A stretch of 64,000 nucleotides of DNA, taken from the IMG/VR virus record IMGVR_UViG_3300042351_000809; one strand, given 5' to 3'. The notes beneath the pieces were generated by a model, which was given only the letters and a program-made list of their open reading frames with translations, had not been told where the DNA came from and ran no database searches. Below, one piece after another: positions 1-10,176 of the stretch (its first letter is position 1; every line of letters begins with the position of its first letter). Made by a program: the position numbers and the translations under genes. Source of the stretch: a virus.

Positions 1-95
1 TCAAGAAGTTTCATCGTCGCTGCGATTTCCTTCTTTAACCAAACAGAAGTTTTCTTAATCATAAGGCACTGATTTTTTGCTTCTCTTTCAGTCAT
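1..95 (-). CDS. 5' part of a hypothetical protein running off the window (MTEREAKNQCLMIKKTSVWLKKEIAATMKLL...)
   Basis: ATG at 95-93 overlaps the TGA of the 92..544 gene (ATGA coupling); frame is open to the window edge. Confidence 0.6.
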   Translation of the reverse strand, partial: MTEREAKNQCLMIKKTSVWLKKEIAATMKLL

Positions 96-544
96 TTTTC
101 AGCCTTTATCTCTTCTAGGATAGCAAGCAGATCATTATCATAATTACTAATCCAACCACTATTAAATCCAGCTTGATCTTTGCAAAGAGTTTTAATCCAA
201 CCTTTTGAATTGATTCCTACAGTTTCGTTAAAAACTCCACTCTCCTCGCAAATGAAACAGCTTAAAGATTCTGCCGCAGATACATGATTAAAAATTTCTT
301 CGTTGTCAGTTCCAGTGTGGTAAACTCTAAGAGATCCAAATTTTTCTTTAACTTGCAGAACGATGAAAGAATCTTTTTCCTCTGGCGGCTTGTCTTTGTT
401 TATGTAATTGAGAGAGTTTTCAACTCGCAAAAACATCCAATTTAAGATAAAAAACCACCCATCAGAGCAATCAAATGAAAGTCCTTTAGAGTCAAAGAAC
501 GAGGAGAAACGATTGCAAAGATAATTTTCTAGTTTTGCGTTCAT
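92..544 (-). CDS. conserved phage hypothetical protein
   Basis: 150 aa; DGWF...QVKEKFGSLRVY...ICEESG...GWIKTLC pattern typical of a widespread phage family; ATGA-coupled on both sides. Confidence 0.75.
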   Translation of the reverse strand: MNAKLENYLCNRFSSFFDSKGLSFDCSDGWFFILNWMFLRVENSLNYINKDKPPEEKDSFIVLQVKEKFGSLRVYHTGTDNEEIFNHVSAAESLSCFICEESGVFNETVGINSKGWIKTLCKDQAGFNSGWISNYDNDLLAILEEIKAEK

Positions 545-840
545 ACCTTTTCAGATAAGTCTTCGATTACAGTATTTGATGTATCCCATTTAAGATACTT
601 AGCTAAACCCATTATATCAAATAATTCATCTTTTGCCCAAAGAATTTCTTTGTATGCACCAAGGTTAGACTCTCTTTCGCTTATAGATCCCATTGCAGCA
701 CAAGAAGAATAATTGTAAGCGAAGTCAACAGAGAAATATTCGTTCTCTGTTTCTCCCTTCCATATCTCAACTAAAAGTTCTAAATCAGTATTAAAAAATT
801 TCTCCATCAAAGTCAGGCGGCTAATTTTTAATTGCCTCAT
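541..840 (-). CDS. hypothetical protein
   Basis: Start moved from 894 to the ATG at 840-838, which overlaps the stop of the upstream glycosyltransferase (ATGA). Confidence 0.65.
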   Translation of the reverse strand: MRQLKISRLTLMEKFFNTDLELLVEIWKGETENEYFSVDFAYNYSSCAAMGSISERESNLGAYKEILWAKDELFDIMGLAKYLKWDTSNTVIEDLSEKV

Positions 841-1502
841 GTACTTAGAAGGATTTTCTTTTCGTGCTTCACTATTACTTGTGGATGTATCCATACTTTA
901 TGACCTTTTTCTTTAGCTTTGAGGCAGAAGCCTACGTCTTCCATGCAGAAGTCGTGAGCGTTGCCAATATTAAAAAAGATCGGCTGGAACCAAGGATAAT
1001 CCAAACTCTCAAAAACGCCTTTCTTAATTAAGATAAAACCAAATCCAGTGTAGTCAGCTACAAAGGGTTCCGTTTTACCCACTACATCTTCTCTCTGAAC
1101 GAACTTAAAGTAACCATTTTTTTCAAAAAACTTTTCGTCCCAATCGACCACAGTGGCAAATTGATTTGGCTCTCTTGAACCATTAGTCATTAAGTATAAA
1201 CCAGAAGCAATATCCTTCTCCATTTGAAGAAGTCTAATAAAGTCTTGAGGTTTGAAGACAATATCAGAATCTATCCAAAGTATATAATCATAATCAAAAG
1301 AACCTCCCCAAGGTTTTTGGCTCTTGCCAGCTTGGACATTGCCGCCAAGGCACATATTTCTTACATAGTAAATATTACAAGATTCCTTTCTTGAAAGAAA
1401 TACCTTGATGTTGTTGTGAAGACACCAATGATAAAATTCTAGAAAAGAATCAAAAAAAGACCCGGAAAAGTTATTTCCGGGGATGCAAATAACTAACTTC
1501 AT
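837..1502 (-). CDS. GT-A fold (GT2-like) glycosyltransferase
   Basis: YILWIDSD DxD motif, TGFGFILIKKGVFE, EDVGFC...H.K C-terminal pattern. Confidence 0.8.
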   Translation of the reverse strand: MKLVICIPGNNFSGSFFDSFLEFYHWCLHNNIKVFLSRKESCNIYYVRNMCLGGNVQAGKSQKPWGGSFDYDYILWIDSDIVFKPQDFIRLLQMEKDIASGLYLMTNGSREPNQFATVVDWDEKFFEKNGYFKFVQREDVVGKTEPFVADYTGFGFILIKKGVFESLDYPWFQPIFFNIGNAHDFCMEDVGFCLKAKEKGHKVWIHPQVIVKHEKKILLST

Positions 1503-1510
1503 AATAAGAA

Positions 1511-1657
1511 TTACTTCTTCGGCTTCTTCTTATCTTGATTCAGGCAAATCGCAACACGTTGCTTTGGATTTGGATATTCGTCCTTTGGAATGTCGGTCAT
1601 ACAACGTCCCATGAACTTTTTTGAGTCTTCACCTTTACGTTTATTTGGTACTGGCAT
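1511..1657 (-). CDS. 48-aa small phage protein (MPVPNKRKGEDSKKFMGRCM...EYPNPKQRVAICLNQ...)
   Basis: Below the ORF-track cutoff, translated by hand; fills the gap exactly; MP.P...F..RCM...EYP..KQR.AIC pattern is familiar from phage small proteins. Confidence 0.7.
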   Translation of the reverse strand: MPVPNKRKGEDSKKFMGRCMTDIPKDEYPNPKQRVAICLNQDKKKPKK

Positions 1658-1658
1658 A

Positions 1659-1820
1659 TTATTTAATTTTAATTTTTAACTGCAAATTTTTATTGGATTT
1701 TTCTTCGATGTAATTTTTAGCTGCTGCCTTTCCTTCTTTTGTATGAGGGAAAGCACCATAAGTGTAATTATTTTTCTTTGAAATTACAATATAAAATTTT
1801 TCACGTTTTAGTTTTGGCAT
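1659..1820 (-). CDS. 53-aa basic hypothetical protein (MPKLKREKFYIVISKKNNYTYGAFPHTKEG...)
   Basis: Below the ORF-track cutoff, translated by hand; same strand as neighbours; stop ends 1 nt before the next ATG. Confidence 0.6.
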   Translation of the reverse strand: MPKLKREKFYIVISKKNNYTYGAFPHTKEGKAAAKNYIEEKSNKNLQLKIKIK

Positions 1821-2082
1821 TTTTTTCCTTTTCCTTTTTTTCTACCTTGTCGATCTTAATGAGAAGATCTTCGATTTTCTTTTCCTCTATTTTTTTACGA
1901 GCCAAAAAAGTACCAAGTTTATGACGAAGGCTCTCTAGTTCAGTTTCATTTTCTAAAGAGAAGTCTTCTTTTTCAAGATCATCTATTTTTTGAATAATTT
2001 TAGCAGTCTCTTTAATCCACCAATTAGTACTTTTCTGAAGTAAGAGAGCTTCTTCAAAAATTTGATTCTCTTCAATAGTCAT
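1801..2082 (-). CDS. hypothetical coiled-coil protein
   Basis: 93 aa, K/E-rich helical; preceded by the GTGTAA motif. Confidence 0.65.
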   Translation of the reverse strand: MTIEENQIFEEALLLQKSTNWWIKETAKIIQKIDDLEKEDFSLENETELESLRHKLGTFLARKKIEEKKIEDLLIKIDKVEKKEKEKNAKTKT

Positions 2083-2100
2083 ATTCAGCTATATCTTATA

Positions 2101-2106
2101 TTACAC
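2101..2106 (-). promoter_or_regulatory. GTGTAA motif (candidate phage-sigma promoter)
   Basis: GTGTAATATAAG, 18 nt before ATG 2082, in an intergenic gap. Confidence 0.5.
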
Positions 2107-2123
2107 ATTTTATTTTATCGTGT

Positions 2124-2783
2124 TTATTTGGCTAACTCTGGCTCATTCTTGAACTCATAATACATAAGTTCCTCATCTCCAGCAGTCCACTTGTGAGCAA
2201 GACCTTCGCAAGAAAATTCGTGGCTAAAAGGTTTCCATGTTTTTGATTCTGCGGGTAATGAAGACCCAATGAATGCTCCTGAATCGCGCCAAATGATTCT
2301 ATTGTTTGGTTGAGCAAACATTTGACCTCCTTCTCCCCAAAATACATGAGCGCACTTATGTCCGCTTGAGATTTCAGAATACCCTAAATTATAATCTTCT
2401 CCATTACACCAATCAATTGTAAACGCATACTTAGCTGTATGCTTAGACTTATCTTTCATCAGCATATAGGCTGAAGCGTTTTTAAGATAATCGAATCTTT
2501 GGACTGAAAAATAATAACCGAAACAATCCCAAAGTTGAATCCAATGTAACTCAAAATTTGTTTGAGGCTCAGGAATTTTTGACAAGTAATGAATTGGAAC
2601 TCTAGCAAATTGCGCCCCGAATTCGCTCATTACGTTAAATAGCAAACACCTTCTGGAAATTGAAACTACTGAGAATATCTCTACAGGAATCCATTTTCCA
2701 CTTGTTCTTGGTAAAGAGTCATTAAGAAACGAAGTATCAAGGTATGCTGTTTGAGTTGGTATTGATGTAGTTAAATAAGCCAT
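2124..2783 (-). CDS. conserved phage hypothetical protein
   Basis: 219 aa; QLWDCF, Y.FTIDW, HKCAH, AQPNNRI.W motifs recurrent in aquatic phage proteins. Confidence 0.75.
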   Translation of the reverse strand: MAYLTTSIPTQTAYLDTSFLNDSLPRTSGKWIPVEIFSVVSISRRCLLFNVMSEFGAQFARVPIHYLSKIPEPQTNFELHWIQLWDCFGYYFSVQRFDYLKNASAYMLMKDKSKHTAKYAFTIDWCNGEDYNLGYSEISSGHKCAHVFWGEGGQMFAQPNNRIIWRDSGAFIGSSLPAESKTWKPFSHEFSCEGLAHKWTAGDEELMYYEFKNEPELAK

Positions 2784-2790
2784 AAAAATG

Positions 2791-2814
2791 AAAAACCCCG
2801 CACATAGGCGGGGA
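2791..2814 (-). terminator. intrinsic terminator after hsp20
   Basis: Minus strand CCCCGC-loop-GCGGGG followed by TTTTT, just after the hsp20 stop. Confidence 0.75.
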
Positions 2815-2819
2815 GTAAC

Positions 2820-3137
2820 TTAAGTTACTTTTATTTTTTTCGGTTGATGTTCGCCCTTTAGGGGAATTGTCAGAGTAAGCAATCCGTTTTCAGCGGATGC
2901 TTTTAGTTGAGAAGAATCTGCGGCAGACGGAATCCACAAAGATGCTTCTGCCTTCTTCTTTCCATTAGAAGCTTTAACGGTAACAAGATCTCCTTCATTT
3001 TCAGTCTTGATCGTTACATCCAAGTTTTCTTTAGAAAAACCCGGAACTTCAATCTCAGTAGTATATTGATTACTAAGCTTGTCTAGAGTGAATAAGTTTT
3101 TATTATTTGTTGGAGTATTAGAATATATGTATATCAT
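2820..3137 (-). CDS. small heat shock protein (Hsp20/alpha-crystallin domain)
   Basis: EVPGFSKENLDV and A.AENGLLTLTIP signature. Confidence 0.85.
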   Translation of the reverse strand: MIYIYSNTPTNNKNLFTLDKLSNQYTTEIEVPGFSKENLDVTIKTENEGDLVTVKASNGKKKAEASLWIPSAADSSQLKASAENGLLTLTIPLKGEHQPKKIKVT

Positions 3138-3152
3138 AGACGATTATCTTCT

Positions 3153-3169
3153 AGCAAGAATTGTGCCAA
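3153..3169 (-). promoter_or_regulatory. sigma54 (RpoN)-type -24/-12 promoter
   Basis: Minus strand TTGGCACAATTCTTGCT: GG-N10-GC with TGGCAC and TTGC boxes, 15 nt before the hsp20 ATG. Confidence 0.7.
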
Positions 3170-3239
3170 CCTTAAAACCCGCTTTTTTACTGCTTATTTG
3201 AGACATTCTGAGACAAAATTGGCTGTCACAGTGACAGAG

Positions 3240-3725
3240 TTACACTCCTGTACTTCCAAATCCGCCCGTTCTTTCGGTTGTAGACAAAGATTCAACCTGC
3301 TGCCAATCAACAGCATGATACTTTTCAATAATTAATTGAGCAATTCGGTCTCCAGCTTTAATATTAAAATCAAAACTTGAACCAGCGATATTTGGAGTAA
3401 GTCCCATCATGCTTGCAAGATCGATGCTTAGATTCATCAAGACAACTTTAACTTCTCCACGATAGCTAGAGTCTACAACGCCAGCAAGGACATCAATACC
3501 ATTCTTAACTGCCAAGCCGCTGCGAGGAGCAATTCTAGCGTAGTAACCTTGAGGCACTTCAACCGAAAGCCCAGTGCTAACGAGAGCGCGACTCATAGGC
3601 TTAATTCTTACATTCTCGGTTGCGTAAAGATCGTAGCCAGCATCTCCAGTCTTTTGACGAGACGGGACAATTGCTAGATTGTTTAGTTTAACGAATTTAA
3701 CTGTGACTATTGTTTCTATATCCAT
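3240..3725 (-). CDS. dut: dUTPase (trimeric)
   Basis: AGYDL, PRSGLA, GVVDSSYRGE, RIAQL, R.GGFGSTG motifs. Confidence 0.95.
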   Translation of the reverse strand: MDIETIVTVKFVKLNNLAIVPSRQKTGDAGYDLYATENVRIKPMSRALVSTGLSVEVPQGYYARIAPRSGLAVKNGIDVLAGVVDSSYRGEVKVVLMNLSIDLASMMGLTPNIAGSSFDFNIKAGDRIAQLIIEKYHAVDWQQVESLSTTERTGGFGSTGV

Positions 3726-4174
3726 AATTGTAAATGAGATTTGATTTTAGAAAGGCTTTCAGGATTTAATTCCTTATAGTAAATTTTGTAATATTCAAAT
3801 ATTTCTTTGAACTTGTTACATTGATCGTATTCCTTAATATAAAATACTCTTTGAATTTCATGAGAAACTATATCCTTCGCGCAAGCGAAGCAAGGCGATA
3901 TCGTCAAACATATAGTATCTGCATCTCCTTTTCTTATCAAAGACAAGGCGTTGGTTTCTGCGTGGAGCATTATTTCGCGCTTCTTAGGGCGATTTTTCTC
4001 CTCCTTCATCCAATCTTTAACAGGGAAGCCTTTTTTAAGACCATTGTACCCTGTTGAAATTATTCTGCCTTCTTTATTTAAGATGCAAGCTCCAACCTTG
4101 GTGTGCGGATCTTCACTTCTAGACGAAGCAGCAAGAGCCATCATGCACCCGTACTCATGCCAAGAAAGTCTCAT
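3716..4174 (-). CDS. dCMP deaminase
   Basis: SEDPHTKVGAC, TGYNG, HAETNAL, SPCFAC zinc motifs; start MRLSW at 4174 preferred over 4246 because a promoter lies just upstream. Confidence 0.9.
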   Translation of the reverse strand: MRLSWHEYGCMMALAASSRSEDPHTKVGACILNKEGRIISTGYNGLKKGFPVKDWMKEEKNRPKKREIMLHAETNALSLIRKGDADTICLTISPCFACAKDIVSHEIQRVFYIKEYDQCNKFKEIFEYYKIYYKELNPESLSKIKSHLQLWI

Positions 4175-4181
4175 GGAAAGT

Positions 4182-4246
4182 ATTCTCGCTGGAGCAAAAC
4201 AAAAGATCAAGTTTATTTGGACCTTTTTCTGGCATTCTTGTATCAT
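4182..4246. promoter_or_regulatory. back-to-back divergent sigma70-type promoters
   Basis: Minus: TTGATC(4210-4205)-N17-GAGAAT(4187-4182), 7 nt before ATG 4174. Plus: TGGACC(4218-4223)-N17-TATCAT(4241-4246), 5 nt before ATG 4252. Confidence 0.5.
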
Positions 4247-4251
4247 TGATT

Positions 4252-4671
4252 ATGACAATCGCTGACGCTTCAATTAAGTTATACCAATGGTATTTTAAAA
4301 ATGATAGTTTTTGTGAAAATGATTTTATAAAGATTCTTGAGATTTCTGAACAACCCGAATCTGAAAGAGCTTGCATTTTGTGCGCTCTTGAAGAATTTGA
4401 GAAAAATGGAGTCGTAAAGAAGGCTCTCTTTAATGAAAATAATTATTGGATTCTTTCTAAGAAGTTTGATGCCTATGAGCAGAATGTCATAATTTCTCCT
4501 AAAACTGCTTTCATAATCGCAGAAATTATTAATTCTTACTGCGCTTTAATTGAAAACGAATCTGAAAGATGCAACCCTGCTTCAGTCAGCGAGAAGGACA
4601 TCAAGAACCTTCTGGTCATCTTCAACGAGATGCGCGAAAAGATTTTTGACAAAACCAAAAACCCTGAATAG
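4252..4671 (+). CDS. hypothetical protein, possible winged-helix
   Basis: ~139 aa; AL..FEKNGVVKK helix-wing-like segment; ATG 4252 preferred. Confidence 0.6.
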   Translation: MTIADASIKLYQWYFKNDSFCENDFIKILEISEQPESERACILCALEEFEKNGVVKKALFNENNYWILSKKFDAYEQNVIISPKTAFIIAEIINSYCALIENESERCNPASVSEKDIKNLLVIFNEMREKIFDKTKNPE

Positions 4672-4674
4672 GAT
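4646..4674 (+). promoter_or_regulatory. sigma70-type promoter driving the non-coding region
   Basis: TTGACA(4646-4651)-N17-TAGGAT(4669-4674); predicted start ~4681. Confidence 0.75.
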
Positions 4675-4680
4675 GAGCTA

Positions 4681-5000
4681 GTTCTTTGTCTGGGTGAATA
4701 GCCTACTGGGGAGATCCCAGTTTGAACGCATCAGAGACATCAGGCCCGTAAAAAGACCCTAGTCAACTGGATCTAAGAAATCCAACGCCATTTCGGGAAA
4801 AGGCGACGTTCCGCAAGGAGAAGACTTTGAAAAAGCTGAAACCTCATTTTTCTCAAAAGAAAAAGCTGGCAGTTCGTCCTAAAATAAATCCCACCCGTGA
4901 AGACAAAGAACTTAAACAAAGAGTTAGTCATTAGCTAGGCTTTCTTGAGAAGGCCGAAGACCTGCGAAACAGGCTGCGAAGGATTGAAATGGGTAGCTCT
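4681..5000 (+). ncRNA. candidate structured non-coding RNA, family unknown
   Basis: No ORF; GC-richer than flanks; GTTCTTTGTCT(4681-4691) pairs with AGACAAAGAAC(4901-4911) and GGGTG with CACCC; several internal hairpins including a GCAA tetraloop; second domain closed by 4920-4932/4988-5000. Confidence 0.65.
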
Positions 5001-5087
5001 TGATTATTTTAAAACTCTATAATTATTTTTAGAGATGACAGCCTTTTCCTATTTTAACTCAAAGAAAAATCATAAAGCTGGCAGTTC
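4862..5087 (+). repeat. 14-bp direct repeat AAAGCTGGCAGTTC (4862-4875 and 5074-5087)
   Basis: Two exact copies, each preceded by CTCAAA(A)GAAAAA. Confidence 0.8.
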
Positions 5088-5089
5088 TC

Positions 5090-5118
5090 TTTACAAACAC
5101 ATCTCTTCTAGATACTAT
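5090..5118 (+). promoter_or_regulatory. sigma70-type promoter
   Basis: TTTACA-N17-TACTAT, 8 nt before ATG 5127. Confidence 0.65.
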
Positions 5119-5126
5119 GTTTTACT

Positions 5127-5759
5127 ATGTCTAACTTATTCCTAGGAATTGCTGGTGCTGCAACTGTAGGTAAGGATACTTACTATAGATTACTAAAGCA
5201 GATTTGCTCAGAAGAGTTTGGAGTGAATGTAATAAGATTTGCTCTTGCTGATTCGTTAAAGAGTGATTTGTATTCTTTGATCTTATATAAATACGGAGTT
5301 GACATTTTTAATTGCTCAACTGAGGATAAGAACAAGGTAAGGCATTTATTAGTAAGTCACGCTAGAGTAATGCGTCAAAATACTAAAGGCAGGTATTGGA
5401 TAGAAAAGCTTCAGTCTGAAATTGATGAGTACAAGAAATCTGAAAATTTTAAGCCTTCAGATATTTTTTGTGTAACAGATATTAGACACTTCGAATATTT
5501 AAAAGACGAAGTTGTTTGGATAAAGGAAGAAAATAAAGGAGTTTTAATTTATGTTGAAAAATATTTTTCAGACGGTTCAATTTGCAATCCTGCAAACGAT
5601 GACGAAAGCAGAAACGATCCCGCTCTTAGAGAACATTGCGATTATTTGCTTCGTTGGATGCATGGATCTGATGAACAAGCTTTGAAAATTTCCGTCAAAG
5701 AAAGTATTGACAACTTGATAAAACAAGGTAAGCTTTACGCACATGATAGACTCAACTGA
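5127..5759 (+). CDS. deoxynucleoside monophosphate kinase-like P-loop protein
   Basis: GIAGAATVGKDT Walker A, FALADSLK, VTDIRH..E as in T4 gp1-type kinases. Confidence 0.75.
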   Translation: MSNLFLGIAGAATVGKDTYYRLLKQICSEEFGVNVIRFALADSLKSDLYSLILYKYGVDIFNCSTEDKNKVRHLLVSHARVMRQNTKGRYWIEKLQSEIDEYKKSENFKPSDIFCVTDIRHFEYLKDEVVWIKEENKGVLIYVEKYFSDGSICNPANDDESRNDPALREHCDYLLRWMHGSDEQALKISVKESIDNLIKQGKLYAHDRLN

Positions 5760-6330
5760 CAATGAACTTGTAACGAAGGTAAAACTTCATCAATGCAACC
5801 AATCATTAAAGACTCTGATAGATAGGCATTCTCCTCTCTGTTTTGATATCTTTAAAAAATATAATAAGATTCTTCAAGAAAGAGGCGTAAGCCCAGAAGA
5901 TCTTGCTAATGAAAAAGATTACATTATTTACAAGTGTACTCTTAATTTTGATGAAACTCAAAATAGCAAATTCTCAACTTGGCTTGCTAACCACGTTAAA
6001 TACAAATGCTTAACAAACATTACTAAACATAAGTGGACGCTTTCCATAGATGATGAAAATCAAAAGAATCTTGTAGCAAATCTTAGTCAAGATACTAATG
6101 ATTTTGAAGAGAAGAAGGAGTACATTTTTAATCTCCTTTCTCAAATGAAAGATAAACGACTAGAGAAGATTATCATGTTGAGATACTATGGAGATAAGCC
6201 TTCTCGTAAGTGGAAAAATATTTCAAAAGAACTAGGCGTAACTTATCAGACAGCAATCACTTTACACAAAAAAGCTCTTGAGTTCTTGAAGACCAAAATA
6301 GAGAGTAAAGAAATGCAAGATTTCGTGTAA
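5743..6330 (+). CDS. phage-encoded RNA polymerase sigma factor (sigma70 family, regions 2 and 4)
   Basis: DNELV, FD....KFSTWL region 2; IIMLRY...ISKELGVT......HKKAL..LK region 4 HTH. Confidence 0.8.
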   Translation: MIDSTDNELVTKVKLHQCNQSLKTLIDRHSPLCFDIFKKYNKILQERGVSPEDLANEKDYIIYKCTLNFDETQNSKFSTWLANHVKYKCLTNITKHKWTLSIDDENQKNLVANLSQDTNDFEEKKEYIFNLLSQMKDKRLEKIIMLRYYGDKPSRKWKNISKELGVTYQTAITLHKKALEFLKTKIESKEMQDFV

Positions 6331-8208: not shown

Positions 8209-10176
8209 ATGAGCAAAGCTATTAACTTCCTAGACGAAATGGCGAACTTTACGTTCGTAACAAAATACGCAAAATATGACGAAAAGAAGAAGCGCAGAGA
8301 GACATGGGACGAGACTGTTACAAGAGTCGAGACCATGCACTTGAAGAGATTCAAGCATCTACCAAAAGAAGACAAGTATGAAATTTCAAGAGCTTTCGAC
8401 TTGGTTAGAGAAAGGAAGGTTACTCCTTCAATGCGTAGTATGCAATTCGGCGGTAAAGCGGTTGAAGCGCATAATGGAAGGATCTTTAATTGCGCTGTAC
8501 GTCATATTGATTCTATTCGTTCTTTTGCTGAATCTTTTTATACTTTGCTTTGTGGTACTGGCGTTGGATTTGGTATCACTGATAAGTTCCTCAATCGCTT
8601 ACCTGATCTCGTCAACGCTAAAGATAAGACTGGGACGGTAATCACCTATACAGTTAATGATAGCATTGAAGGGTGGGGCGACTCAATTGAAGCTTTGCTA
8701 AACTGCTATTTTAAGAATACCGCTTATTCTGGCCGCAAGATTGTATTTGATTACAGCAAAATTCGCCCAAAGGGAGCGAAGCTTAAGACTGGTGGAGGAA
8801 AGGCTCCCGGCTATAAAGGTCTCAAGAATTGCCATTTCAAGGTTAAGTTGCTGCTTGATACCATCATTGAAGATAGTAATCAAACCCGCCTTAAGACTGT
8901 CAATGCTTATGATATTTTGATGCATTGTGCTGATGCCGTATTGTCTGGAGGTATTCGCCGTTCTGCTTGCAGCGTTATCTTTGACGCTCAAGATAAGGAC
9001 ATGATGAATGCCAAGACTGGCAACTGGTTCCTTGATAACCCTCAGAGAGCTAGATCAAATAACTCTGCAATTATTATTCGCGGCAAGACTTCTTATGACG
9101 AGTTTGAAACTCTAATTAATAAGACTAAGGAATTTGGTGAGCCGGGATTCTTGTATGTTGTTGATGAGAATCAGCTTTTGAATCCTTGCTTTGAGATTTC
9201 TTTTATTCCAATTACTAAAGATGGACGTTGCGGATTCCAGTTCTGCAATCTCACTTCTATCAATGGAGCGAAAGTTAAGTCACTAGAAGATTTTAAAAAT
9301 GCTTCTTGGGCTGCGTCATTGATTGGAACGTTACAAGCTGCATATACGACCTTCCCTTATCTCGGTCATACTTCCGAAGAGTTGACCGAAGAGGAAGCTC
9401 TGCTTGGAGTTTCTATTACTGGAATGATGGATAATCCAGACATCCTTTTTAACCCAGAATACCAAAGAGAAGCAGCCAAGGTTTCAGTAAATACTAATAT
9501 TGAATGGGCTAAGAAGATTGGAATCAATCAGGCTTCTAGAGTTACTTGCATCAAGCCAGAGGGAACTAATTCCATTGTATTGTCTGCTGCTTCTGGAATT
9601 CATCCTCACCACGCTCGTAAGTACTTCCGCCGCATTCAGGTCAATAAGGAAGATAATGTCTATAAGTTCTTCAAGATGTTTAATGAACACGCTTGCGAAG
9701 AGAGCGTTTGGAGCGCAAATAAGGTTGATGATGTTATTACATTCCCTATTGAAGTAAGTGAGAATGTCAAGATTAAGTCTGAACTAAATGCAATTGAGCA
9801 TTTGGAACTTATTAAATTGACACAAACTAACTGGGTTAATTGCGGCACAACCGCTTCAAACAAGAAGCCATTGAACCATTCAGTTAGCTGCACCGTTATT
9901 GTTAAAGACGACGAGTGGAAGACCGTTACAGAGTACCTTTATAACAATCAAGAGTACTTTACTGCTGTTTCTTTGCTTCCTTATTCTGGAGACAAGATCT
10001 ATCAACAGGCTCCAATGGAAGCAATTGTAACGCCTGAAGATGAAGTTAAATTTAATAAGCTTCAAGAAGAGTGGTCAAAGGTTGACTTTACTAAACTTAT
10101 TGAAGATGAGGATGAAACTAGTCATACTCAGGAAGCTGCTTGTGCTGGCGGAAAATGTGAGCCAGTAAGTCTATAA
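8209..10176 (+). CDS. nrdJ: class II (adenosylcobalamin-dependent) ribonucleotide reductase
   Basis: FNCA, GTGVGF, GGIRRSA, NPCFEI, FCNL, IKPEGT, SGIHPHHA..Y.RR, C-terminal ACAGGKCE; no nrdB partner in the window. Confidence 0.9.
   Translation: MSKAINFLDEMANFTFVTKYAKYDEKKKRRETWDETVTRVETMHLKRFKHLPKEDKYEISRAFDLVRERKVTPSMRSMQFGGKAVEAHNGRIFNCAVRHIDSIRSFAESFYTLLCGTGVGFGITDKFLNRLPDLVNAKDKTGTVITYTVNDSIEGWGDSIEALLNCYFKNTAYSGRKIVFDYSKIRPKGAKLKTGGGKAPGYKGLKNCHFKVKLLLDTIIEDSNQTRLKTVNAYDILMHCADAVLSGGIRRSACSVIFDAQDKDMMNAKTGNWFLDNPQRARSNNSAIIIRGKTSYDEFETLINKTKEFGEPGFLYVVDENQLLNPCFEISFIPITKDGRCGFQFCNLTSINGAKVKSLEDFKNASWAASLIGTLQAAYTTFPYLGHTSEELTEEEALLGVSITGMMDNPDILFNPEYQREAAKVSVNTNIEWAKKIGINQASRVTCIKPEGTNSIVLSAASGIHPHHARKYFRRIQVNKEDNVYKFFKMFNEHACEESVWSANKVDDVITFPIEVSENVKIKSELNAIEHLELIKLTQTNWVNCGTTASNKKPLNHSVSCTVIVKDDEWKTVTEYLYNNQEYFTAVSLLPYSGDKIYQQAPMEAIVTPEDEVKFNKLQEEWSKVDFTKLIEDEDETSHTQEAACAGGKCEPVSL

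What the first reader, a model, noticed from the sequence alone, without database searches (positions are those of the whole stretch)
4646..5000. Promoter-driven ~320-nt structured ncRNA of unrecognised family
Seen: this is the only long ORF-free gap in the window. A near-consensus TTGACA-N17-TAGGAT promoter places +1 at ~4681, exactly where an 11-bp helix begins (4681-4691 with 4901-4911, extended by GGGTG/CACCC). It encloses a multibranch domain: ACTGGG/CCCAGT at 4705-4721 inside GCCT/AGGC, TGGAT/ATCCA, CGCC/GGCG, TCC-GCAA-GGA and TTTTTCT/AGAAAAA. A second domain (4920-5000) holds GGCTTTC/GAAGGCC and CCTG/CAGG hairpins with several G-U pairs. I do not recognise tRNA, tmRNA, RNase P, SRP or intron hallmarks. 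Inference: a host-polymerase-transcribed early phage RNA, lying between a possible winged-helix gene and the kinase/sigma-factor operon. It could be a regulatory or decoy RNA, an RNP component or an origin primer RNA.
Basis: partly seen in the sequence, partly recalled or inferred. Interest (0 to 1): 0.8.

Follow-up and report, generated by a model that had tools for sequence, protein, structure and literature searches.

The report
Uncatalogued 410-base folded phage RNA
The gene-free gap is a real gene for an intricately folded non-coding RNA of about 410 bases that a group of uncultured aquatic phages keeps almost unchanged; it matches no catalogued RNA family and its job is still unknown.

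Summary
Window 4681 to about 5087 (+) encodes a structured non-coding RNA. Its TTGACA-N17-TAGGAT promoter (4646-4674) keeps its position in four sequence lineages, always 5-6 nt before the first base of closing helix P1.

Across 22 distinct versions, 93 proposed pairs are 96% paired. Thirty-one pairs changed on both sides, against 15 +/- 2 in shuffles (0/500) and 1-8 in slid controls. G-U pairs place the RNA on the + strand, and 1-nt indels exclude coding. The single-sequence folding energy is not special (z = -1.2), so covariation carries the case.

After Domain 1 (4681-4911) and Domain 2 (4919-5001) come hairpin P11 and module P7', a diverged copy of P7. Each module ends in GCUGG plus 6 nt, and the two 6-mers changed together in two other lineages.

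Rfam 15, ARAGORN and phage-genome searches find nothing, and no paper holds four strings taken from it. This scan found the same family before on other DNA (e1-5645226, 'new four-pseudoknot phage RNA family').

Function is unknown. My best guess (0.35) is a protein-read regulatory RNA coupled to the adjacent dNMP-kinase/sigma-factor operon.

The parts
4252..4671 (+). Upstream gene for a winged-helix protein of about 139 aa (listed ORF starts at TTG 4246). Its last codons carry the -35 box and its stop codon lies inside the promoter spacer.
   Evidence: AlphaFold2 model with pLDDT 79. Best Foldseek matches are MarR/SlyA/MecI/BlaI winged-helix proteins at E about 5e-3. No Pfam or PHROG hit. The family has 651 representatives. 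The alignment shows the true start at the third residue of the listed ORF.
4646..4674 (+). Sigma-70-type promoter TTGACA-N17-TAGGAT of the RNA gene.
   Evidence: Found by the consensus scan. Kept as TTGACA or TTGATA, then N17, then a TAG-initial -10 hexamer (TAGTAT, TAGCAT, TAGATT or TAGCGT), at the same distance from P1 in L016, L048, L066, L062, L065 and L053, with different spacers.
4681..5087 (+). The whole non-coding RNA, about 407 nt. The 5' end is inferred from the promoter geometry. The 3' end is inferred from where conservation and the P7' module end.
   Evidence: Alignments A1, A4 and A6. Covariation counts.
4681..4696 (+). P1 5' strand. P1a is 4681-4691 and P1b is 4692-4696. It pairs with 4892-4911.
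   Evidence: G-C to A-U in the L008 group. GGGUG/CACCC becomes GGGCG/CGCCC in L035.
4705..4721 (+). Hairpin P2, ACUGGG/CCCAGU.
   Evidence: Three of six pairs changed on both sides.
4722..4725 (+). Tentative P3 5' strand, pairing with 4827-4830.
   Evidence: Two G-U pairs become C-G and A-U in the L008 group. The helix is not kept in the L062 lineage; 90% of cells pair.
4745..4748 (+). CCCG, candidate pseudoknot partner of loop L5 CGGG (4794-4797).
   Evidence: CCCG/CGGG becomes UCCG/CGGA in L048 and L066. All cells pair.
4761..4764 (+). P3' 5' strand AGUC, pairing with GACU at 4823-4826. It encloses the P4-P5-P6 junction.
   Evidence: AGUC/GACU becomes AACC/GGUU in L035 and CGUUC/GAGCG in L053.
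4768..4784 (+). Hairpin P4.
   Evidence: All five pairs changed on both sides. The variants are UGGAU/AUCCA, UGAGC/GCUCA, UAAG/CUUA and CAGAC/GUCUG.
4786..4805 (+). Hairpin P5, CGCC/GGCG, with the conserved loop AUUUCGGGAAAA.
   Evidence: The helix is invariant or shifts C-G to U-G only, so it is not tested by covariation.
4809..4820 (+). Hairpin P6.
   Evidence: The stem is kept while the loop changes among GCAA, GAAA, UCAC and A7.
4842..4875 (+). Module P7 (CC 4842-4843 with GG 4868-4869; inner hairpin 4847-4864), ending in box 1, GCUGG + CAGUUC, at 4865-4875.
   Evidence: The inner stem loses one pair on both sides together in five relatives. The repeat family was found by the repeat finder.
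4892..4911 (+). P1 3' strand.
4919..5001 (+). Domain 2, a three-way junction. P8a is 4920-4926/4994-5000, P8b is 4928-4932/4988-4992, P9 is 4938-4955 and P10 is 4961-4973. The junction strand CUGCGAAGGAUUGA is conserved.
   Evidence: Pairs changed on both sides: 7 of 12 in P8, 4 of 7 in P9 and 2 of 4 in P10. Covariance model R1 scores this site at 107.7 bits, E 1e-23.
5014..5035 (+). Hairpin P11, (U)CUCUA/UAGAG(A).
   Evidence: The stem is kept while the loop varies from 4 to about 22 nt in both sequence and length.
5048..5087 (+). Module P7', a diverged copy of P7 (CC 5048-5049 with GG 5080-5081; inner AUUUU/AAAAU at 5051-5055/5066-5070), ending in box 2, GCUGG + CAGUUC, at 5077-5087.
   Evidence: A 21-nt direct repeat, 4855-4875 and 5067-5087, 212 nt apart. 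Both boxes read CAAUUC in L048 and L066, and UAAACG in L062 and L065.
5090..5118 (+). Second promoter, TTTACA-N17-TACTAT, 8 nt before the kinase ATG. The kinase mRNA would be nearly leaderless.
   Evidence: Found by the scan. The hexamers are conserved and the spacer varies. A comparable -10 box lies 7-11 nt before the start codon in L048, L066 and L053, but not in L062 or L065.
5127..6330 (+). Downstream genes: dNMP kinase (5127-5759) and a phage sigma factor (5743-6330).
   Evidence: PHROG 139 at 1.7e-11; PHROG 351 and Pfam Sigma70_r2.

Best explanation
Shown: window 4681 to about 5087 (+) is the gene of a non-coding RNA of about 410 nt. It belongs to an uncatalogued family carried by one clade of uncultured aquatic phages with large genomes (contigs up to 149 kb). 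A conserved sigma-70-type promoter sits so that transcription should begin at the first base of closing helix P1.

The fold has four parts:
- Domain 1: P1 closes 231 nt that hold P2, a P3/P3' stack carrying the P4-P5-P6 junction, module P7, and at least one pseudoknot.
- Domain 2: a three-way junction.
- Hairpin P11.
- Module P7', a diverged copy of P7.

Each P7 module ends in GCUGG plus a 6-mer, and the two 6-mers have changed together in two other lineages.

Inferred, not shown: one sequence-specific reader, most likely a protein, recognises both modules. The adjacent winged-helix protein is the obvious candidate. Box 2 lies 2 nt before the -35 box of the kinase/sigma-factor promoter in this window. 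It lies inside that promoter's spacer in the L048 lineage and 6 nt before the kinase start codon in the L062 lineage. Binding there would therefore couple the amount of free RNA or reader to expression of the phage sigma factor, and so to the early-to-late switch. On this view the large conserved core is the high-affinity platform and P7' is the regulatory copy.
For: Structure and strand:
- 93 pairs are 96.2% paired. Thirty-one pairs and 102 cells changed on both sides, against 14.8 +/- 2.2 and 23 +/- 3.8 in shuffles (0/500) and 1-8 pairs in slid controls (earlier sets).
- G-U pairs form only on the + strand. One-nt indels lie inside the only small ORF.

Conservation and promoter:
- The gap is about 95% identical where the kinase protein is 72-78% identical.
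- The promoter geometry is kept in four lineages.

Modules and boxes:
- The repeat is confirmed.
- The boxes changed together twice: CAGUUC, CAAUUC and UAAACG, identical in both copies within each lineage.
- No complementary 6-mer lies nearby in any lineage, which argues against a simple cis RNA partner.
- Box 2 sits against the promoter or start codon in three lineages.

Context:
- The neighbouring gene encodes a winged-helix protein with MarR/MecI-like folds.
- That gene precedes the RNA in every lineage seen.
Against: - No expression data, so the 5' and 3' ends are inferred only.
- The concerted box changes rest on two events.
- L053 keeps only a partial second box.
- Relatives L056 and L057 have the winged-helix, kinase and sigma genes but no RNA. 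The protein therefore does not need the RNA, and the operon does not need the leader.
- Other relatives (L013, L058) carry an unrelated RNA at the same place with its own terminator, which points to a free-standing product.
- A core of about 320 nt with pseudoknots is much more than a protein operator needs.
Confidence: 0.35

Rival explanations
1. A free-standing, trans-acting 'ornate' RNA. It would be an abundant early product acting as an RNP scaffold, a decoy for a host factor or an RNA-only assembly, with no role in controlling its neighbours. The duplicated P7 modules would then serve binding of two copies of a partner, or self-association.
For: - It has its own near-consensus promoter in all lineages.
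- Long invariant single-stranded junctions and pseudoknots are typical of RNAs with tertiary folds.
- A separate kinase promoter lies downstream in this window.
- Positional analogues in L013 and L058 end in a clear intrinsic terminator, followed in L013 (where the sequence continues) by a separate kinase promoter.
- Sequence diverges fast between lineages at a fixed locus.
Against: - No terminator lies between the RNA and the kinase gene in the window type.
- In L062 and L065 the kinase ATG follows box 2 by 6-7 nt with no visible promoter, so there the RNA is physically the leader.
- No partner is identified.
Confidence: 0.3
2. A cis-acting leader of the long rightward operon. It would be either a ligand-sensing riboswitch or a promoter-proximal RNA that modifies RNA polymerase for processive antitermination, working like HK022 put or EAR.
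For: - It has the same orientation as the operon and lies directly upstream of it. All ORFs of 250 aa or more between about 20 and 34 kb, and the genes annotated from 5.1 to 10.2 kb, lie on the + strand.
- No terminator follows it.
- In L062 and L065 it abuts the kinase start.
- Extreme sequence conservation would fit contact with a conserved host machine.
Against: - No Rfam riboswitch or leader family matches, even at E up to 10.
- The only alternative pairing found (4984-4993 with 5048-5057) is not kept in L048.
- The kinase has its own conserved promoter here.
- Relatives lack the RNA, or have a terminated one.
- It is several times larger than put or EAR (from my own knowledge).
Confidence: 0.12
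3. The two boxes are DNA operators for the winged-helix protein that control the kinase/sigma promoter. Their presence inside the RNA gene would be incidental to what the RNA does.
For: - Box 2 lies next to or inside the kinase promoter.
- The neighbouring protein has a MarR/BlaI/MecI-like fold.
- The boxes co-vary, as expected for sites read by one evolving protein.
- No RNA partner was found.
Against: - The repeat covers a whole P7-like module of about 35-40 nt, including the paired CC/GG, not just an operator-sized site.
- The box is a poor palindrome and loses its symmetry in L048 and L062.
- The spacing varies from 212 to 217 bp.
- Only two copies exist in the 64-kb window.
Confidence: 0.12
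4. An origin-associated or primer RNA, working like ColE1 RNA II or the T4 origin transcripts. The transcript would prime or open the replication origin at the strand-switch point.
For: - The RNA gene lies within 500 bp of the divergent gene switch at about 4.2 kb.
- This is also where cumulative GC skew in the window reaches its minimum.
- The promoter is strong.
Against: - GC skew follows transcription direction in phages, so the minimum is expected here anyway.
- No iterons or AT-rich unwinding element were found in the gap.
- Relatives with the same gene order lack the RNA.
- Conservation has the pattern of an RNA tertiary fold rather than of a DNA site.
Confidence: 0.05
5. A self-processing RNA, that is a ribozyme, that acts at the two identical boxes.
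For: - Two identical sites co-vary at a nearly fixed spacing of 212-217 nt.
- The core is complex and pseudoknotted.
- An earlier scan note on another phage RNA family raised the same idea.
Against: - No known ribozyme family matches.
- No internal guide complementary to the boxes was found.
- Cleavage at box 1 would cut inside Domain 1.
Confidence: 0.05

Closest known systems
Large 'ornate' RNAs of unknown function: GOLLD, ROOL, OLE and the raiA motif (PMC12286853, listed)
   Same: They are long, multi-junction, pseudoknotted non-coding RNAs kept by strong selection. GOLLD and ROOL are often phage- or prophage-borne. Their function is unknown or only partly known.
   Different: No sequence or structure match: their Rfam models do not hit the window or its relatives. 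This RNA is shorter, at about 410 nt. It has a fixed place between a winged-helix gene and a dNMP kinase gene, its own sigma-70 promoter, and a duplicated terminal module.
phi29 pRNA, the packaging RNA (from my own knowledge)
   Same: It is a phage-encoded RNA driven by an early promoter. Its 5' and 3' ends pair in a closing helix and it has a two-domain layout. Its sequence diverges fast between related phages while its place and architecture are kept.
   Different: pRNA is about 174 nt and confined to small phi29-like phages with protein-primed DNA. The phages here are large and have long tails with a tape-measure protein. No homology was detected.
Immunity RNAs of P1/P7 (c4) and P4 (CI) (from my own knowledge; Rfam C4 family)
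   Same: They are small regulatory RNAs made from the leader of an operon, in which short repeated sequences upstream and downstream are read by one element.
   Different: Those work by base pairing between the RNA and its repeated targets. Here no complement of the boxes exists nearby. The RNA is about five times larger, and the Rfam C4 model does not match.
HK022 put and EAR processive antitermination RNAs (from my own knowledge)
   Same: They are promoter-proximal, conserved, structured RNAs at the head of a long operon. They could explain strong conservation through contact with RNA polymerase.
   Different: put is about 70 nt with two hairpins and EAR is about 120 nt. The EAR model (and put, if Rfam holds one) would have been covered by the all-family Rfam scan, which found nothing. 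The next gene has its own promoter here.
The unrelated structured RNAs at the same locus in sister phages: the L013/L058/L054 type and the L059 type
   Same: They occupy the same slot, winged-helix gene then RNA then dNMP kinase. They are of similar size (330-450 nt) and have a sigma-70 promoter and a long closing helix. L013 also repeats an internal 10-mer beside the kinase promoter.
   Different: No detectable homology: nhmmer and the Domain 2 covariance model find nothing. The L013 type ends in an intrinsic terminator.

Membership tests
Any Rfam 15 family (4227 models, including RNase P, 6S, SRP, group I/II introns, riboswitches, GOLLD, ROOL, C4) | A covariance-model score at or above the family's gathering threshold. 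| tested here: not met
   No match in the whole window at gathering thresholds. Over 4500-5250 the best match is snoR41 at E 0.22, which is chance. Nothing at E up to 1 in the relatives L048, L053, L058, L059 and L054.
tRNA / tmRNA | A tRNA-like acceptor and T arm, plus a tag reading frame for tmRNA. | tested here: not met
   ARAGORN finds no gene in the window.
Protein-coding small gene | A reading frame kept open in relatives. | tested here: not met
   The only candidate is a UUG start at 4827 with 35 codons after an AAGGAG. It is frameshifted by a 1-nt deletion in the L002 group and a 1-nt insertion in the L008 group.
Structured non-coding RNA (generic) | Base pairs kept through compensatory changes, above controls. 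| tested here: met
   Thirty-one of 93 pairs changed on both sides, against 14.8 +/- 2.2 in shuffles (0/500) and 1-8 when slid. 96.2% of cells pair.
Structured non-coding RNA (generic) | Folding energy below dinucleotide shuffles. | tested here: not met
   z is -1.24, and 13 of 100 shuffles fold as well.
Independent transcription unit | A promoter conserved in position, with a mapped 5' end and 3' end. | tested here: inconclusive
   The promoter is conserved in four lineages. No terminator was found.
Riboswitch or attenuator leader | Mutually exclusive pairings conserved between an aptamer and an expression platform. | tested here: not met
   The one alternative helix (4984-4993 with 5048-5057) shows no compensatory change and has three mismatches in L048.
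Scan-internal 'four-pseudoknot phage RNA family' (e1-5645226) | Shared sequence, a length of about 410 nt, the same slot, and unrelated RNAs in sister phages. | tested here: met
   Fifty-five of 94 short words are shared. I reach the same length and the same finding about sister phages independently. I could support only one pseudoknot by a compensatory change, not four.

The most novel reading that the evidence does not exclude
The RNA is a two-site device. Its duplicated P7 and P7' modules present the same programmable 6-mer to one reader, and it uses them either to time the phage's sigma-factor switch or to carry out a two-step RNA reaction or self-assembly. That would make it a new functional class of phage RNA rather than one more orphan fold.
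Probability: 0.15. Interest if true: 0.8.

Novelty: new member of a known kind. Interest (0 to 1): 0.55.

Why it matters
Large phages of lakes and oceans are known almost only from metagenomes, and annotation skips their non-coding genes. This one is kept more strictly than the proteins around it. It sits at the head of the operon that encodes the phage's own sigma factor. It also has a built-in pair of co-evolving recognition sites, which gives a concrete handle for experiments. Sister phages carry unrelated folded RNAs in the same slot, which suggests that the slot itself demands an RNA whose role is not yet understood. If the coupling to the sigma operon holds, this would be an RNA-based timer of phage development. 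If it does not, the RNA adds a well-defined family to the short list of large orphan RNAs suitable for structural study.

Tried and rejected
Searches that found nothing:
- Rfam at gathering and at E-value thresholds, on the window and on all relatives.
- ARAGORN.
- blastn of the locus, and tblastn of the winged-helix and kinase proteins, against 50,697 phage genomes.
- Four 14-16-nt strings from the RNA, searched in papers.

Tests that were uninformative or failed:
- Single-sequence folding energy is not significant.
- Of the metagenome motif hits, L027, L036 (an rpmH gene) and L047 were chance matches and were dropped.
- The MFE helix GAACG/CGUUC is broken in the L008 group.
- RNAalifold's long-range pairings 264-269/423-428 and 315-326/395-407 (A1 columns) are not supported. 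L048 and L053 instead support the local helices P8a and P8b.
- The P7 outer helix AGCUG/CAGUU fails in L048 and L062.
- A box 1 with box 2 duplex fails in L048 and L062.
- J-strand AACUG with box CAGUU co-varies in L048 but fails in L062 and L053, and it overlaps the well-supported P4.
- No cis complement of the 6-mers exists.
- The small ORF is rejected by indels.
- nhmmer and the Domain 2 covariance model find no homology to the L013, L058, L054 or L059 RNAs.

- The search for related loci with the 53-protein alignment failed because no stretch was conserved enough. One earlier call got no answer.
- The genome search holds no genome for this window and none of the viral contigs.
Full report
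**What is there.**
The window is part of an uncultured phage. The finding is flanked by dUTPase and dCMP deaminase on the minus strand. On the plus strand lie a 141-aa protein, then the gap, then a dNMP kinase, a sigma factor, a glycosyltransferase and a class II ribonucleotide reductase. The gap 4672-5126 is the longest stretch of the window without an ORF of 70 aa or more. Its G+C is 0.44-0.46 against about 0.32 beside it. The promoter scan finds TTGACA-N17-TAGGAT at 4646-4674.

**Is it a known RNA?**
- Rfam 15 gives nothing for the whole window at gathering thresholds.
- Over 4500-5250 it gives only chance-level matches.
- ARAGORN finds no tRNA or tmRNA.
- Rfam scans of five relatives that carry this RNA or the unrelated same-slot RNAs also found no match at E up to 1.
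- No isolated phage shares the locus at the DNA or protein level.
- Four 14-16-nt strings from the RNA occur in no paper searched.

**Is the fold more than chance?**
For the single sequence it is not: the MFE is -86.3 kcal/mol with z = -1.24, and the other strand folds about as well. The comparative evidence is decisive.

Relatives came from four routes:
- the kinase protein;
- motif scans of viral, metagenome and genome collections;
- the contigs encoding homologues of the upstream protein;
- three metagenome hits were chance matches and were excluded.

In contigs whose kinase is only 72-78% identical in protein, the gap is about 95% identical in DNA.

Twenty-two distinct versions in four lineages were aligned as A6. 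The lineages are the window type, L048/L066, L062-L065 and L053. On my refined structure:
- 93 pairs are 96.2% paired;
- 31 pairs and 102 cells changed on both sides, against 14.8 +/- 2.2 and 23 +/- 3.8 in column shuffles (0 of 500 reach the observed values);
- structures slid by 1-3 columns give 1-8 such pairs (smaller sets).

P4 changed on both sides at all five pairs, P8 at seven of twelve, and P9 at four of seven. G-U pairs such as U-G in P9 and P1 would be A-C mismatches on the minus strand, so the RNA is read from the plus strand. A 35-codon UUG frame behind an AAGGAG (4827-4934) is broken by 1-nt indels in two groups of relatives, so the region is not coding.

**Anatomy.**
- *Promoter.* TTGACA or TTGATA, N17, and a TAG-initial -10 hexamer (TAGTAT, TAGCAT, TAGATT, TAGCGT) recur in every lineage with different spacers. 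The first G of GUUCUUUG always lies 5-6 nt after the -10 box. I therefore place +1 at about 4681, the first base of P1.
- *Domain 1 (4681-4911).* P1a and P1b close the domain. Inside are hairpin P2 and a short helix P3' (AGUC 4761-4764 with GACU 4823-4826). P3' is AACC/GGUU in L035 and CGUUC/GAGCG in L053, and it encloses hairpins P4, P5 and P6. A tentative P3 pairs 4722-4725 with 4827-4830. Module P7 follows.
- *Pseudoknots.* Loop L5 CGGG (4794-4797) can pair with CCCG (4745-4748). L048 and L066 have CGGA/UCCG, a compensatory change. GCC/GGC (4702-4704 with 4742-4744) would be a second pseudoknot, but it never varies.
- *Domain 2 (4919-5001).* This is a three-way junction, well supported by covariation.
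- *Hairpin P11.* The stem is constant while the loop varies from 4 to about 22 nt.
- *The 3' tail.* The tail is conserved as far as 5087. It is a diverged copy of P7, which I call P7'. In both modules a CC pairs with the GG of GCUGG around an A/U hairpin.

The RNA is thus about 410 nt, not 320.

**The two boxes.**
The repeat finder reports 4855-4875 and 5067-5087 as a 21-nt repeat, 212 nt apart. The 13-mer AAGCTGGCAGTTC occurs only twice in the 64-kb window. The 6-mer after GCUGG is CAGUUC in both copies in the window type, CAAUUC in both in L048/L066, and UAAACG in both in L062-L065. L053 keeps only part of the second copy. That makes two concerted changes.

I looked for an RNA partner and found none that holds in all lineages:
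- box-to-box pairing fails;
- the P7 outer helix fails;
- the J-strand AACUG fails;
- no complementary 6-mer lies in the neighbouring kilobases.

Box 2 lies 2 nt upstream of the -35 box of a second promoter, TTTACA-N17-TACTAT at 5090-5118. The hexamers of that promoter are conserved while its spacer varies. In L048/L066 box 2 lies inside the promoter spacer. In L062/L065 it lies 6-7 nt before the kinase ATG, with no promoter visible.

**Surroundings.**
The upstream protein folds as a winged helix. Its pLDDT is 79, and its best PDB matches are MarR, SlyA, MecI and BlaI at weak E-values. It belongs to a large family of 651 representatives.

Its gene precedes an RNA gene in most relatives, but the RNA is not always the same:
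- L013, L058 and L054 carry a different structured RNA, which in L013 and L058 ends in its own terminator; L054 is cut by the contig end;
- L059 carries a third kind;
- L056 and L057 have no gap at all.

Neither nhmmer nor a covariance model of Domain 2 links these RNAs to the window's family.

The host is unknown. The best reductase match is Microcystis phage Mel-JY01 at 41%. One hit lies in a Planctomycetia MAG contig that is probably a mis-binned phage contig.

**How it most likely works.**
Shown: a conserved, pseudoknotted, plus-strand RNA with its own conserved promoter, and a duplicated, co-varying terminal module. What follows is inference.

I favour, at 0.35, a protein-read regulatory RNA. 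One sequence-specific reader binds both P7 modules, and the copy at the kinase/sigma promoter or start codon ties RNA or reader levels to expression of the phage sigma factor.

The rivals are:
- a free-standing trans-acting ornate RNA (0.30);
- a riboswitch or antitermination leader (0.12);
- boxes that are DNA operators unrelated to the RNA's role (0.12);
- an origin RNA (0.05), given that the cumulative GC-skew minimum and the strand switch lie at about 4 kb;
- a self-processing RNA (0.05).

**Relation to earlier scan notes.**
A look-up by sequence shows that this scan met the same family in another genome. A follow-up agent there called it a new four-pseudoknot phage RNA family of about 410 nt, with unrelated RNAs in the same place in other relatives. 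I reached the same length and the same picture of sister phages independently. I could support only one pseudoknot by a compensatory change. Other first-reader notes on this genome had seen the repeat and proposed an origin.

**Limits.**
The 3' end is inferred from conservation only. The divergent lineages are few, so P3, the pseudoknots and the concerted box changes rest on one or two events each.

Noticed in passing
L013:3539-3991; L058:940-1293; L054:1927-2276: Sister phages have a different structured RNA in the same slot between the winged-helix gene and the kinase gene. L013 and L058 show a TTGACA-N17 promoter and an intrinsic terminator, and L013 a 13-bp closing helix; L054 is cut by the contig end before any terminator. 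Three sequences already show 23 pairs changed on both sides. No Rfam match.
   Followed up: partly
L059:1912-2379: A third kind of promoter-driven non-coding stretch, about 450 nt, occupies the same slot in another relative. It shares only an AGUCAAY-plus-hairpin element with the window RNA.
   Followed up: no
L056:1501-2561; L057:136-1082: In two relatives, one on a 218-kb contig, the next gene (the kinase in L056) follows the winged-helix gene directly. No RNA gene lies between them.
   Followed up: no
window 5113-5129: The kinase start codon lies 8 nt after a -10 box and has no Shine-Dalgarno sequence. L048, L066 and L053 show the same arrangement, 7-11 nt. The mRNA looks leaderless or nearly so.
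   Followed up: partly
window 4815-4934: AAGGAG followed by a UUG start and a 35-codon, very basic frame lies inside the RNA. It is broken by 1-nt indels in relatives, so it is probably not a gene.
   Followed up: yes
window 3716-4252: The listed dCMP deaminase ORF (176 aa) abuts the winged-helix ORF. Relatives have a deaminase of 153-165 aa (153-155 aa in most) and a 40-80-nt divergent intergenic region. The true start here is probably about 60 nt further in.
   Followed up: no
window 1-6000: Cumulative GC skew reaches its minimum in the window at about 4 kb. This is where gene orientation switches from minus to plus.
   Followed up: partly
L052 (RGDT01000092.1): A 13-kb contig binned into a Planctomycetia MAG carries the RNA. 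It is probably a phage contig and gives no safe host assignment.
   Followed up: no
window 8209-10176: The class II (B12-dependent) ribonucleotide reductase is closest to that of Microcystis phage Mel-JY01 (41% identity, 190-kb genome). That phage lacks the winged-helix and kinase homologues.
   Followed up: no
L013:3860-3869 and 3917-3926: The unrelated L013 RNA also repeats an internal 10-mer, AAAAGGAAGT, just before the -35 box of the kinase promoter. This echoes the box 1 and box 2 arrangement.
   Followed up: no
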